From: Pocillopora damicornis
Taxonomy: Eukaryota
Length of the DNA: 64,000 bases
Direction: 5' to 3'
Assembly (NCBI RefSeq): GCF_003704095.1
Contig: NW_020844421.1
Coordinates: forward strand, 1 to 64,000
Both the position numbers and the translations under genes were made by a program. The notes below the pieces were generated by a model that did no database searches, was not told where the DNA came from, and saw nothing but the letters and a program-made list of their open reading frames with translations. Position 1 is the stretch's first letter; the number at the start of each line of letters is the position of its first letter. Of this stretch, positions 42,701-51,849 are shown piece after piece.

Positions 42701-43955
42701 TCATATTCTCCATACCCCTCTCTATATGTTTCTACCGATACTGACAAGGAGAATTGATATGAAGATCAAAACCTCCAAGGCAGCGATCATTTCCTTTATT
42801 CTCATAATTTTAATGAATGGTTGAGCAGTATTACTGTGAGGAGAACTTAGATGCCGGTTACTCTTAGGGTTTAGCCCTTTAACTCCCATGAGTGACCAAG
42901 ATAGAATTTCTCCTTACAATATCAAACAGATAAGTGATGAGAATAGAGAAAAATATCAATTTGGGAGTGATTAATTGATCCAATACTAAATTCTCTGAAC
43001 TAACATTACATGAATTGCATGGTTGATAGTAAGGAGAATTTCAAATTTGATCTGGTAGATAAAGGGTTAAAGGGTCAAGAGATTTAGGCCTCGACGAGAT
43101 TCGAGCCCATGACTTCTAGGTACTAGTTCATTTGAGCAGCAAGGCCACATTTTGAAAGTGAGGCAAATTTTTGAGAATTCTTTGCTCCCATAAAGGAATG
43201 CTCCTCTTGAATTTGTCTTTCTTCCGACATATGGCTTTTTAGCTCAGTTAAAAATATTGTATTAAACGCGTACATCAATATTATTATTGCTAACGCTGGT
43301 GAATCATTCCCTCCTAAATTTGACTAGGAATAATGACGCTGAACCAAATTATAAATACGTAGAAGTTGTCCGGAAGAAAGATGAAAGAGCCAAGCTAAAC
43401 GGCTATAAATGTCGTGACTGCCAAGAGGTAACATGCCAGATTACTTAGACAGAAAAAAATAGTCCACTGAGTGAAAAAGTGAACTAAGACATTCCATGCT
43501 GGAATTTGGCCCAAAAGGCACTAAGTACAGGAAAACTTAGGCACGAAGAATACAGGAATTTTAAAGGCTTTTGAAGCGAACAAAACATACTAAAGAAGCA
43601 AGGCAGATCTTTTCATCGGTTTTTTTTTGTGGAAGTAATTTCTTCCTTGTATAGGGGGAATATGCATCATCAAGAACCTGTAGATTACTAAATAAGTTTA
43701 AAGTTAATAGTGTTTTAAATGGTATTAAAAAATGGTATTTAAATGGTTTAAAAGGAAGACCTTATTCCTGTTTTCTCGTCACCATATTCCTACCAATAAC
43801 GTAGCTCCACTTTCTGCATATAAACCCACACACAACTCACAATTCCTCCAATCGCTCTGACGAAGGGCTAACCCTCAAAATGTCAGGTTTTTTACCCTTT
43901 ACGGTGGCCAATTTACGTTTTCAACTCAATTGTTAACACTAAATTACCTGCTATA

Positions 43956-43998
<43 letters not shown>

Positions 43999-44661
43999 AC
44001 CTTTAGACCTAATCGCTGACGAGAGGTCATGAAAGAATGTCTGTTTTGGTTTAAGCCTTATAAAAGTTGGAACATGTGACCTGTTTTTCTCTCATTTTTG
44101 TTTAGTTTGAGAGCAATAGATAAAAATCAATTCAGCCGTTGGCGAAATTTATTCCCTTGTTTTTGTCCTTTTTTTAGGATTTGTATTGTATTGGCTAATA
44201 TGATGTTCTTCACGATGGGCGACTTTTTTTCAGTCTGTGCGTCAAAGTTTCGGTGTTACGTAACGAGTCAGTTAGAGTTGAGAAATGTTAAGCCGATTGT
44301 TGACAGTGGTCTCTCGAGTTCTCTTTTACATATTTAGATTATTTCATCTGTTTTGCAAATGTGATAAATTAGGTTTGCTATTGTGATTGCCAATCGAAAT
44401 GCGCTCAAAGACAGATATCCCTTTTCTTTTCAGTACTACCAGGGCCTTGATCTTCCCGAAGATGAGCTGAAAAAACGTTTGAAGCACTGTTCTCGTCACC
44501 GAGCGAAGTTTTCACCACCACCGTCCACTCCGCCAGGCTTTTGGAATTTAAGCTTTCCGGATACCCAAGAGTATATGGCTAAGGGCTATTTAAAGACTGA
44601 GTCGGAAGCACCGGCTCCGAAGAGACTTCGGAAAACACGACGGAATAGGATCGCAAAGTGA
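36702..44661 (+). CDS. RBBP8: DNA endonuclease RBBP8/CtIP (Sae2 family), ~11 exons
   Basis: N-terminal MESYSLLEKLKETIKRDFQ|DL (tetramerisation-like) and coiled coil (exons ~37553-37658, ~38086-38148, ~38463-38536, 38854-38929). Large acidic exon 39589-40606, then exons ~41027-41228, ~41554-41630, ~41713-41783. C-terminal YVEVVRKKDERAKLNGYKCRDCQE (43328-43427)|YY...CSRHR...STPPGFWNLSFPDTQ (44434-44661) carries the CxxC, RHR, CDK TP and TQ sites. The exact start is uncertain. Confidence 0.93.
38191..38395 (-). mobile_element. CMITE-type MITE (reverse orientation)
   Basis: ttaaccctttaactcccaagatctc...cttggtcactcatgggagtaaa. Confidence 0.85.
39138..39555. mobile_element. CMITE-type MITE (39138-39353) sharing a TTAA with an adjacent second-subfamily MITE
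   Basis: ...gggagtttaaggg-TTAA-tcctctacaccctaacat... Confidence 0.7.
42501..42590. mobile_element. Palindromic MITE-like hairpin
   Basis: gcctacgtgtagccgcacccttcc / ggaagggtgcggctacacgtaggc, with gccctctgag repeated on both flanks. Confidence 0.8.
42672..43075. mobile_element. Nested CMITE-type MITE cluster in a CtIP intron
   Basis: TTAA-ccctttatataaaggg-TTAA mini-palindrome, a second-subfamily body, then a full copy at 42871-43070. Confidence 0.75.
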
Positions 44662-45548
44662 AGTGTCTTTTCGAAGATTAACGATGAATTGCGAAGTTGA
44701 CATGAAGATGTCACGATCGCTGATTGCTCGGGTTATCCGTGTGGTAACGAAGAAAACCGATTGGTGGAAGATGATACGAGGCATAATACAAATATAGAAC
44801 TGTATTGTGAACAAGCCTCATGCATTTATACTAGAATGTACTGCTTGTCAATTTTTTTTCTTAAGTGTGTACATGTCGAGAAATATTACGAGGAGCCAAT
44901 GGGAACTCACTACAAGAAAACATGCCTGCCGCGCGGAAAAATGCGATTGAGCAAGTCGTCATTGGTTTAAGTTTTGAATCCATTTGCTTTTTAAAGTGGC
45001 GCGAGTTTCCTAGACCAATCTCCTATTCAGAGCAATCTCGGATAAATTTCAACACTTTTCTCTAGAGTGTATTTCGATCGAGCGTCATAAAACCGAAGTC
45101 AACGTAATCACAACGACCTATCTGACGAAAAAAATATCGCTTAGGGCAAATGGGAACCCAAATAGCAGAAGATTGTCCCCTCAGTTCAAAAAAGTCTGCT
45201 ATGAGAAATAATAATGACTGTTTATGAAAATCCTTCCGTAAATCAAGATGTAATTTACTGATCCACGAGTGTAATTTCAGAAATTCCAACATGCGTTCTA
45301 AAACCATCCTGATTTGAACTAAATTATTTTGAATCAAATGCTTCCCAATCACCTTTCTCGTTCCACTCCCTGTCTTGCAAGAGACGACGGAGAAAATTCC
45401 TTGGGGACCTGAATCCAAATGGATTTGCATTTTCAGCGCCATTTTTGAAGCGAACAGGATCAACACGAATAGCTCACTTGCCCTTGCAGTTCATTCCTGC
45501 ATTTAGCAGAAGGGCGATTTAAAGAAGCGTTAATTGTCCTTCCTTGCC
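43610..45548 (+). repeat. Segmental duplication copy A (CtIP last intron part, terminal exon, 3' region and TPX2-like promoter)
   Basis: 43610-43745 and 44005-44057 match 50900-51095. 44897-45548 matches 51196-51849. Confidence 0.9.
43845..44003 (+). mobile_element. Penelope-like-derived repeat with a degenerate hammerhead motif, present in duplication copy A only
   Basis: GCT-CTGACGA-AGGGCTAACCCTC-AAAAT-GTC-AGG at 43854-43887, then ...cccaccgacgcagcaccacagtttctttagaaacttacc. Confidence 0.7.
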
Positions 45549-50018: not shown

Positions 50019-50058
<40 letters not shown>

Positions 50059-50867
50059 AAATTTCTTTAATTTCCAGTGATCTTGATTTAGTCTAGCTAA
50101 CTGTAGTCTTATTTGTGCGTCAGTTCAGGCAGGTGTACAGGTAAACTTGGTCTAGATTGTCCTTAAGAGTCAAGTAATAAGCCTATTATTTACATTGGTT
50201 CTTTTCGGGACAGTAGCAATTTTTTTCCTTTTCTTTTTTAGTCACACAACAACAAGTTCAAAACCAGTATGTGCAGGGATCACACTTGGGGGGGATGTCC
50301 AAGAGGTCCCCACTGTACATTTGCTCACTCAAAGGAGGAGCTAGAGAAGTGGGTGTTGATCTGATTCTTTGCTTTAAAGTTTGCAAATTAATGTTTTTCA
50401 TGCTAAGCTATTCTCAGGTCCAAATACTAATGTGTGTTTTTTTTGTTGCATTATCCTAAAGTCTAATTTCCAAATCCTACAATAAATATTTGGACATGAA
50501 TCACAAATGACCTCTTACTAACTAGTATTATCAGCCATGTCCCAAATTCAAGTTTCCTTCTATGATCATGGGCTGTTTATTATGTCTTGGAAAAATGATA
50601 ATAAATACTGATCTAAACATGATTTTTTTCAACGACCAGGGTTTGAGCATTAATCCTTGTTCTTCATTAACGCGCATCACTTTTAATCGCAGGTTTGGTA
50701 AAAGAAGAGCTCAGAGGCCTCGGCCCTCACCCATTGGTAGAGGACCAGTACCATCTGTGGCACCAGATCAGTTTTCACCCCTTGAAAATGGTTGTGATGG
50801 CAGTCCAACAGCTACCCAGGCTCCTACAAATTGTGTCAACGGCTCTGCAAGATCATCTCCTCTTTAA
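47475..50867 (+). CDS. RC3H1: Roquin (RC3H family), C-terminally truncated: RING + ROQ/HEPN + CCCH, ~513 aa, 8 coding exons
   Basis: Exons 47475-48272, 48465-48512, 48687-48839, 49084-49216, 49471-49556, 49960-50001, 50242-50348 and 50693-50867 splice in phase. Motifs: [16 protein letters not shown]...[85 protein letters not shown]...CPRG..CTFAHS. A probable 5' non-coding exon ends ~46168. The symbol denotes the family only. Confidence 0.92.
50018..50058. repeat. (GTT)n microsatellite in a Roquin intron
   Basis: About 13 uninterrupted GTT units. Confidence 0.95.
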
Positions 50868-50899
50868 ATTTCTCCTGGTAAGGAGAGATGAAAATTTTT

Positions 50900-51849
50900 G
50901 TTCATCGGTTTTTTTGGTGAGGAAGTAATTGCTTCCGCGTATAGGGGGAATATGCATCTTCAAGAAACTGTAGATTACTAAATAAATTCGAAGTTAATAG
51001 TGTTTCAAATGATATTTCTTTTGACGGTAAAGATCTTCCTAAGGAGACCTAATCGCTGACGAGATGTCCTGAGAGAATGGCTGTTTTGGCTTAAGNNNNN
51101 NNNNNNNNNNNNNNNNNNNNNNNNNNNNNNNNNNNNNNNNNNNNNNNNNNNNNNNNNNNNNNNNNNNNNNNNNNNNNNNNNNNNNNNNNNNNNNNCAATA
51201 GGAACTCACTACAAGAAAACATGCCTGCAGCGAGGGAAAATACGATTTAGCAGGTGGCTACTGGTTTAAGTTTTGAATCCAATTGTTTTTAAAGTGACGT
51301 GAGTTTCCTAAAACAATCACTTATTCAGAGCAATCCCTAATTACTTTCGACATCTAATTGGAAATTTTTCTTTAGAATGTATTTCGATCGAGCGTCATTA
51401 AACTAAGGTCAACGTCAGATCACAACGACCAATCTGAAGAAAAAATATAACTAGGCAAATGGAACCCCAGTATAAGAGGACTGTCCCCTTCAACAAAATC
51501 TGCTATGAGGGCTAGAAATAACAACGACTGTTTATGAAACCCTTAGATGTAATTTACTGATCCATAAGTGTGATTTTCAGAAAACATGTGCTCTAAAAGC
51601 AATGATTTGAACTAAATTCTTCTTTACCGATTTTTTGGAACCCAGTACCAGTCACCTTTCTCGTTCCACTCCTTATCTTGCAGAGACGACGAAGAAAATT
51701 CCCTAGGGTCTGGACCCAAATAGATTAGCATTTTCAGCGCCATTTTTGAAGCGAACAGAATCAACATGAATAGTTCATTTGCTCTTGCAGTTTATTCCTG
51801 CATTTAGCGGAAGGGTGTGATAAAGACAAGTTAATTGTCCTTCCTAGCC
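50900..51849 (+). repeat. Segmental duplication copy B (interrupted by N gap 51096-51195)
   Basis: ttcatcggttttttt..ggaagtaatt...tatagggggaatatgcatc...; agacctaatcgctgacgaga; ggaactcactacaagaaaacatgcctgc; tcacctttctcgttccactcc...cagcgccatttttgaagcgaacag...ttaattgtccttcct all recur colinearly from copy A. Confidence 0.9.

What the first reader, a model, noticed from the sequence alone, without database searches (positions are those of the whole stretch)
43610..51849. Roquin segment is flanked by a ~2 kb diverged direct duplication whose copies kept complementary functions
Seen: copy A (43610-45548) and copy B (50900-51849) are colinear but visibly diverged, with many substitutions and small indels. 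Copy A holds the working CtIP last exon and loses homology ~10 nt before where the TPX2-like ATG would be. Copy B leads directly into the TPX2-like ATG (51858). The Penelope-derived insert at ~43790-44003 is in copy A only. Inference: the ancestral order was CtIP then TPX2-like, and a ~5.3 kb intron-containing Roquin fragment with its promoter was inserted by a DNA-level event (template switching or circle integration) that duplicated the target. An orphan TPX2-like promoter now lies ~0.5 kb upstream of the Roquin 5' exon and could impose cell-cycle expression on it.
Basis: partly seen in the sequence, partly recalled or inferred. Interest (0 to 1): 0.7.

Follow-up and report, generated by a model that had tools for sequence, protein, structure and literature searches.

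The report
Half-length Roquin gene in Pocillopora corals
These corals carry a second, half-length copy of the mRNA-silencing gene Roquin between two copies of a 2-kb stretch; it is transcribed, likely borrows its tail end from a dead copy of the neighbouring gene, and is predicted to bind targets without destroying them.

Summary
The duplication is real, not a haplotype artefact. A 5.1-kb intron-bearing piece of Roquin (parent on another scaffold) sits between two direct copies of the CtIP-last-exon/TPX2-like-promoter interval. Both duplications are equally old (0.11-0.15 substitutions per site). (1) Copy B holds a 100-N gap; reads show a second CtIP last exon there, with a stop at the conserved Trp in 4 of 4 runs laid. 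It is transcribed and is likely the new gene's 3' UTR. (2) A 245-bp DNA-transposon end lies at the left junction. (3) The copy seems to start inside the parent's transcribed 5' region, so the Roquin promoter probably did not come along. The insert is an open 513-codon gene (RING, ROQ, HEPN, zinc finger, no effector tail), annotated in three Pocillopora species and spliced in RNA. Selection is relaxed but not absent (pairwise dN/dS 0.25, no frameshift here). The RNA-contact residue Lys259 is Glu, and the P. meandrina model has lost the RING. The cell-cycle-promoter idea is untested. Verdict: a new variant of a known kind (truncated duplicate gene); moderate interest.

The parts
43610..45548 (+). 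Copy A of the duplicated interval: CtIP last intron (part), last exon, 3' UTR, intergenic DNA and the region upstream of the TPX2-like start
43763..44004 (.). 242-bp high-copy repeat inserted in A after the duplication; 6-bp target duplication; family not assigned
44434..44661 (+). Coding last exon of CtIP/RBBP8 (SAE2 domain end, to the stop)
45555..45799 (.). Terminal 245 bp of a 1.0-1.3-kb non-autonomous TIR DNA transposon, tip missing, at the A/Roquin junction; absent from the parent locus
45807..45935 (+). 5' non-coding exon piece of the Roquin copy, spliced to 47407
   Evidence: (GT..AG joint, 2 contigs in X15, one with the window's letters)
47475..50867 (+). 513-codon Roquin ORF in 8 exons (47475-48272, 48465-48512, 48687-48839, 49084-49216, 49471-49556, 49960-50001, 50242-50348, 50693-50867); RING, ROQ, HEPN, CCCH; stop where the parent has Tyr
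50868..50899 (+). End of the last copied exon (donor after 50877), end of Roquin homology (50882) and junction to copy B
50900..51849 (+). Copy B of the interval
51096..51195 (.). 100-N assembly gap hiding B's copy of the CtIP last exon (Trp37 to stop, transcribed; inferred 3' UTR of the Roquin copy)
51858..54964 (+). TPX2-like gene (3 exons modelled, about 524 aa); no Pfam TPX2 domain

Best explanation
A half-length Roquin gene sits between two copies of the CtIP-TPX2-like interval; it likely arose in one replication template-switching event and likely uses the dead second CtIP exon as its 3' end, and its protein is predicted to bind without silencing. Inferred origin: in a Pocillopora ancestor the fork left the chromosome just before the TPX2-like start, copied a transposon end and 6.7 kb of Roquin, and returned about 2 kb upstream (a 'cycle of templated insertion'). 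Re-copying a terminator-to-promoter interval would put a spare promoter in front of the insert and a spare terminal exon behind it. The stop lies 10 nt before the last donor, so a transcript ending in that exon would escape nonsense-mediated decay. The protein lacks the C-terminal region that recruits CCR4-NOT in human and fly Roquin. It keeps the equivalents of Lys220, Lys239 and Tyr250 but has Lys259 changed to Glu. It would therefore act as a weak competitor of full-length Roquin, more on triloop than on hexaloop elements, under relaxed selection.
For: Structure and age: (Roquin introns 0.147, A/B 0.105-0.142). Parent full-length on scaffold C4335. Truncated protein annotated in 3 Pocillopora species with the same C-terminus; parent and copy on different contigs in all 3.

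Junctions: A/transposon bridged in 1 DNA run (X8 record 26), transposon/Roquin in 2 of 2 DNA runs.

Expression: 6 RNA runs hold 0.19-0.32 of sampled words. The ceiling for exons is 0.38 and the parent alone explains 0.05. A spliced contig with the window's letters is in X15.

B exon: the Trp37 stop is seen in 4 of 4 runs, and is the only type listed at that place in both RNA runs. In X15 the B-type exon contig begins at 44433; in X16 the unspliced B intron contig ends at 44462. Both are what 31-mer contigs do if the upstream exon ends in non-A plus G. Roquin's exon ends in TG; CtIP's exon and the intron end in AG.

Selection: dN/dS 0.25 (bootstrap 0.16-0.38; about 0.5 expected for a neutral copy). 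0 frameshifts against 14.6 expected from intron indels; 0 internal stops against 5.2 expected.

Function of parts: passages of PMC5303829, PMC5603727, PMC11165066.
Against: The Roquin-to-CtIP-exon splice is inferred from contig ends, not read directly. No read evidence covers the right junction, and nothing spans the gap. 38 of 44 amino-acid differences fall on the copy's branch; its own dN/dS is about 0.43-0.57. The copies differ at 6-8 of 513 residues between P. damicornis and P. verrucosa while the parents differ at 0 of 516. The P. meandrina model starts in another frame and lacks the RING. One P. verrucosa version has Ile at the sanroque position. Intron indel rates probably overstate neutral coding rates. 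In X16 no copy-type contig was listed over the 5' exons, and in X15 no A-type contig over the orphan 5' UTR (absence is weak). Junction microhomology is not readable at this age, and no protein was observed.
Confidence: 0.65

Rival explanations
1. Same origin, but the copy is a slowly decaying transcribed pseudogene. It was constrained early or kept open by chance and now has no role.
For: Branch about 10 times longer than the parent's; own dN/dS about 0.5; RING lost in the P. meandrina model; Lys259Glu at a residue whose loss strongly reduces hexaloop binding.
Against: Open frame and all 7 coding introns with GT-AG ends here. The 513-aa frame is also in two P. verrucosa versions. Pairwise dN/dS is lowest in ROQ (0.15), C-terminal HEPN (0.12) and zinc finger (0.08).
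Confidence: 0.25
2. Two or more steps: a tandem duplication of the CtIP-TPX2-like interval (or integration of a circle), with the transposon inserting later and deleting flanking DNA, including A's copy of the TPX2-like start.
For: The transposon end lacks its tip and 80% of its body and lies exactly at the junction. It is absent from the parent locus. The end state is the same as for one event.
Against: Equal divergence of A/B and of Roquin introns. The transposon piece is about as old (12-14% from 6 of 6 copies, which differ 7-11% among themselves). One event is more economical.
Confidence: 0.25
3. Assembly artefact: A and B are two haplotypes scaffolded in tandem.
For: A 100-N gap lies inside B; no record spans it.
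Against: A and the left part of B lie on one gap-free stretch. 10-13% divergence against 0-1.4% between the window and A-type contigs of other samples. Both types in 2 of 2 DNA runs; in X1 B 53-54 and A 71-79 against 53-82 for single-copy records. Copy and TPX2-like gene share a 3.24-Mb contig in P. meandrina.
Confidence: 0.02

Closest known systems
Cycle of templated insertion (Li et al. 2020, PMC7025897; abstract and passages seen)
   Same: A template from a distant locus is inserted and the string returns to the host chromosome, re-replicating a host segment.
   Different: Described as somatic events in tumours. Here it is old, germ-line, shared by three species, and seems to have built a new gene.
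3'-truncated duplicate genes such as SRGAP2C and ARHGAP11B (PMC6169893; passages seen)
   Same: Intron-bearing partial duplicate that lacks downstream exons, is transcribed and may fuse to flanking exons.
   Different: Those keep the ancestral start site. This copy seems cut at both ends and takes its last exon from a co-duplicated neighbour. Antagonism of the parent by SRGAP2C is recalled, and none is shown here.
MALT1-cleaved Roquin-1 N-terminal fragment, cut at R510/R579 (PMC11165066; passages seen)
   Same: Same domain content and near-equal length (513 aa); that fragment is unable or severely impaired in repression.
   Different: Made by a protease on signalling in T cells. Here it is a separate gene with its own substitutions. 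The equal length may be coincidence.
Roquin/RC3H family (PMC5303829, PMC11172303; passages seen)
   Same: RING, ROQ, HEPN and CCCH region (PDB 4txa, E 4e-185).
   Different: No C-terminal effector region. Both papers state that invertebrates have one member; Pocillopora has two.

Membership tests
Roquin/RC3H | N-terminal RING finger | tested here: met
   PF14634 above cut-off, residues 13-54; missing in the P. meandrina model
Roquin/RC3H | ROQ domain within a bilobed HEPN | tested here: met
   PF21206 and PF18386 above cut-off; aligns over 93-418 with PDB 4qik
Roquin/RC3H | CCCH zinc finger | tested here: met
   C-x7-C-x5-C-x3-H intact, aligned to 4txa; Pfam score 17.8 is under the 20.5 cut-off while the parent passes
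Roquin/RC3H | Stem-loop contact residues K220, K239, Y250, K259, R260 | tested here: inconclusive
   K220, K239, Y250 kept; R260 is Lys in parent and copy; K259 is Glu and S264 Pro in all 4 copy proteins
Roquin/RC3H | C-terminal region that recruits CCR4-NOT | tested here: not met
   Copy ends at 513; parent is 1090 aa
Roquin/RC3H | Represses target mRNAs | not testable with these tools
   Needs reporter assays
Cycle of templated insertion | Host segment repeated in direct orientation on both sides of the insert | tested here: met
Cycle of templated insertion | Insert copied from a distant locus that stays intact | tested here: met
   Parent on C4335; different contigs in 3 of 3 species
Cycle of templated insertion | One event, with replication-type junctions | tested here: inconclusive
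   Ages agree; short fillers and a transposon piece at junctions, microhomology unreadable
3'-truncated duplicate (SRGAP2C type) | Lacks downstream exons and is transcribed | tested here: met
3'-truncated duplicate (SRGAP2C type) | Keeps the ancestral transcription start | tested here: inconclusive
   Parent-type RNA contigs extend 213 and 547 nt past the copied piece, which argues against; contigs cannot show starts
Retrocopy | Introns lost | tested here: not met
   All 7 coding introns and the 5' intron are kept
Transposon capture (Pack-MULE type, recalled) | Gene piece lies between the terminal inverted repeats | tested here: not met
   Only one end is present and its tip faces the Roquin piece
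TPX2 (downstream gene) | TPX2 domain PF06886 | tested here: not met
   0 TPX2 families in 5 of 5 orthologues scanned; true match on C2329. Leads only: a UniRef name and a 0.92 feature hit to a plant cluster with 60% PF12214

The most novel reading that the evidence does not exclude
Pocillopora corals encode a permanently 'pre-cut' Roquin, the genetic twin of the fragment that MALT1 makes in activated T cells. One replication event supplied it with a neighbour's promoter and another neighbour's terminator. It shields immune and stress mRNAs from full-length Roquin, with its preference shifted by Lys259Glu.
Probability: 0.2. Interest if true: 0.75.

Novelty: new variant of a known kind. Interest (0 to 1): 0.5.

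Why it matters
It is a clean germ-line example of a rearrangement named in tumours making a new gene in one step. Duplicating the interval between two head-to-tail genes hands any inserted fragment a promoter and a terminal exon. Roquin is reported as single-copy in invertebrates, and cnidarians have MALT1-like paracaspases, one linked to bleaching in another coral (PMC5978004, passages seen). A built-in non-repressing Roquin in a major reef-building genus would be a testable handle on coral immune mRNA control. If it is only a decaying copy, it is an ordinary partial duplicate and an annotation trap (the half gene carries the name 'roquin-1').

Tried and rejected
Haplotype artefact, retrocopy and capture between transposon ends were rejected (see rivals and membership).

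The idea that the new stop was selected to avoid a bad fusion is not needed: a join to a CtIP-type last exon is out of frame and stops after 5 codons anyway (with A's exon as stand-in).

Penelope or hammerhead identity of the 242-bp insert: Rfam 0 matches. A paper search listed 6 of 7 papers; none was read. PDB search for the TPX2-like orthologue: 0 matches at E<=10. The atlas structure search was uninformative (pTM 0.15).

RNA over the coding 3' half and the right junction could not be examined, so the splice into B stays indirect. Only 4 of 24 listed runs were laid, and table rows were cut (408, 136, 1529 and 25247 rows not shown). Depths of contigs were not used to rank expression. Lack of an A-type contig over the orphan 5' UTR in X15 is not taken as evidence.

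One printed index (end of CtIP's penultimate exon) was off by one; the printed context shows the exon ends in AG at 43427.

No Stylophora truncated copy turned up, but that search is weak and 40-member clusters were listed only in part (15 shown).

Not in print, as far as searched: Roquin+coral, whole word, 7 papers, none on this gene by listing; (15 listed each) likewise. Subscription journals are mostly outside the library, and no supplements were opened. Earlier-findings look-ups returned nothing. No fold or complex prediction was run.
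Full report
Observation. A self-comparison finds three direct, colinear blocks linking A (43612-45548) and B (50901-51849), the best at E 1e-151. B is interrupted by a 100-N gap at 51096-51195 that stands for A 44056-44896. The finding does not mention this gap, which hides B's counterpart of the CtIP last exon. A's exon 44434-44661 matches SAE2/CtIP and is the only such match in the assembly. 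A 242-bp high-copy repeat at 43763-44004 has a 6-bp target duplication in A and an empty site in B, so it came later. Its family was not assigned.

What lies between. 45555-45799 matches a dispersed repeat (37 of 40 listed matches). In six copies inspected it is one end of a longer element. Two show both inverted ends 1.0-1.3 kb apart, and one of six shows a 9-bp target duplication. The window holds only the terminal 245 bp, without the tip. 45807-50882 is 83-87% identical to a full-length Roquin locus on scaffold C4335, introns included, with two deletions (0.6 and 1.2 kb) in the 5' intron. The copy stops 5 bases into the intron after its last exon. Its eight coding exons give an open frame of 513 codons, closed by a stop where the parent has Tyr, 10 nt before the last donor.

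Distribution and age. The identical 513-aa protein is on record as Pocillopora damicornis roquin-1-like. P. verrucosa has it (513 aa, two versions) and P. meandrina has a 489-aa model; all end at the same residue. In each of the three species the 1090-aa parent (or its isoform) is on another contig. CtIP and the TPX2-like gene share a 226-kb contig in Stylophora and a 32-Mb contig in Oculina, with Roquin elsewhere. This is linkage judged from contig lengths; adjacency was not seen. A tree of 8 proteins (first 24 residues of the P. meandrina model removed) groups copy and parent apart from Stylophora at 84% support; informative sites are 3 for, 1 and 0 against. Roquin introns differ by 0.147 substitutions per site over 1742 columns, A and B by 0.105-0.142. 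One event after the Stylophora split is the simplest reading.

Reads. Four of 24 listed runs, from four studies, were laid on 43250-47700. All are contigs. The A/transposon junction is bridged in X8 and the transposon/Roquin junction in X1 and X8. A second CtIP exon type appears in 4 of 4 runs: 53.6 of 124.8 depth in X1, 5.9 of 17.7 in X8, and all listed depth at that place in the RNA runs (29.3 in X15, 261.7 in X16). It carries a stop at Trp37 of the conserved TPPGFW stretch. An X16 contig of this type runs from the 44005 equivalent to 44462, carrying B's left part into the gap. In X15 the exon contig begins at 44433. With 31-letter words, both ends mark a merge with a path that differs at 44432. 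Intron and CtIP exon both end in AG; the last Roquin exon ends in TG. I infer that the Roquin copy splices into B's dead exon. This is indirect. The 5' exon splices from 45935 to 47407 in two X15 contigs, one with the window's letters (20.4 of 64.6). Parent-type contigs go on for 213 and 547 letters beyond the copied 5' piece, so the parent's promoter was probably not copied. Six RNA runs hold 0.19-0.32 of the sampled words of 47400-51095, against 0.05 expected from the parent alone and a ceiling of 0.38.

Selection. Pairwise dN 0.041, dS 0.166, ratio 0.25 (bootstrap 0.16-0.38). With a frozen parent a neutral copy would give about 0.5. Against Stylophora, 38 of 44 amino-acid differences are the copy's, 3 the parent's and 3 unclear, so the copy's own ratio is about 0.43-0.57 if neutral change is split evenly. 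No frameshift is present against 14.6 expected from intron indels, and no internal stop against 5.2 expected; the first figure is likely too high. Against function: the copy drifts between species (6-8 of 513) while the parent does not (0 of 516), and the P. meandrina model lacks the RING.

Protein. RING, ROQ, HEPN and CCCH are present. The C-terminal 570 residues are gone. In human and fly Roquin that region is necessary and sufficient for CCR4-NOT binding, and N-terminal fragments are inactive when tethered (PMC5303829, abstract and passages). MALT1 cuts Roquin-1 at 510 and 579, leaving a fragment unable or impaired in repression (PMC11165066, passages). By alignment to PDB 4txa, copy residue 269 is Lys259 and is Glu in all four copy proteins. 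Lys259 binds hexaloop phosphates, is too far to touch the triloop of the Tnf element, and its loss strongly reduces hexaloop binding (PMC5603727, passages; PMC9371910, passages). Lys220, Lys239 and Tyr250 equivalents are unchanged. Hence the predicted weak competitor biased to triloops. All of this is inference from other species.

Mechanism. The layout host-insert-host matches a 'cycle' of templated insertion, which re-replicates a host segment (PMC7025897). The 'complementary functions' of A and B follow from position. The more telling point is that the spare parts seem to serve the new gene: B's exon as 3' end (indirect support) and A's promoter region as a possible start (untested; the transposon end is an equal candidate). 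The downstream gene is not canonical TPX2, so cell-cycle control is a guess. A multi-step history with later transposon-linked deletion gives the same end state and is not excluded.

Novelty. Truncated, transcribed duplicates that take exons from neighbours are known (PMC6169893). A second, half-length Roquin in an invertebrate was not found in the searches made; two papers state one member in invertebrates. Interest 0.5.

Noticed in passing
   Followed up: no
P0015/P0016/P0004/P0005/P0007, around residue 608: Full-length coral Roquins share VVSR-G in the disordered tail (5 of 7 full-length proteins scanned; absent in the 2 anemones). It resembles the loose MALT1 motif L-X-S/P-R-G. Possible paracaspase site; chance not tested.
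   Followed up: partly
P0010 and P0013, residue 209: Some copies have Ile at the position of the sanroque Met199, a site tied to Regnase-1 binding.
   Followed up: no
window 1-702 vs 5839-6546: Another direct repeat, 78.5% over 708 bp, with gaps in the assembly nearby.
   Followed up: no
window 25039-25245, 26478-26668, 31980-32194, 35160-35372, 38188-38394, 39137-39356, 42869-43071, 52542-52920: Many copies of one 210-bp repeat with inverted ends, very abundant in the genome.
   Followed up: no
window 20064-22007, minus strand: A SET-domain gene with few introns (PF00856, E 2e-7).
   Followed up: no
window 51858-54964: The TPX2-like protein is conserved across stony corals (37 hits), has no Pfam family, and carries two LxxLxxxHN repeats; its nearest feature matches are plant clusters.
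   Followed up: partly
P0002: A 691-aa fish Roquin-2 model scored above the coral parent in the protein search; probably a partial or repeated model.
   Followed up: no
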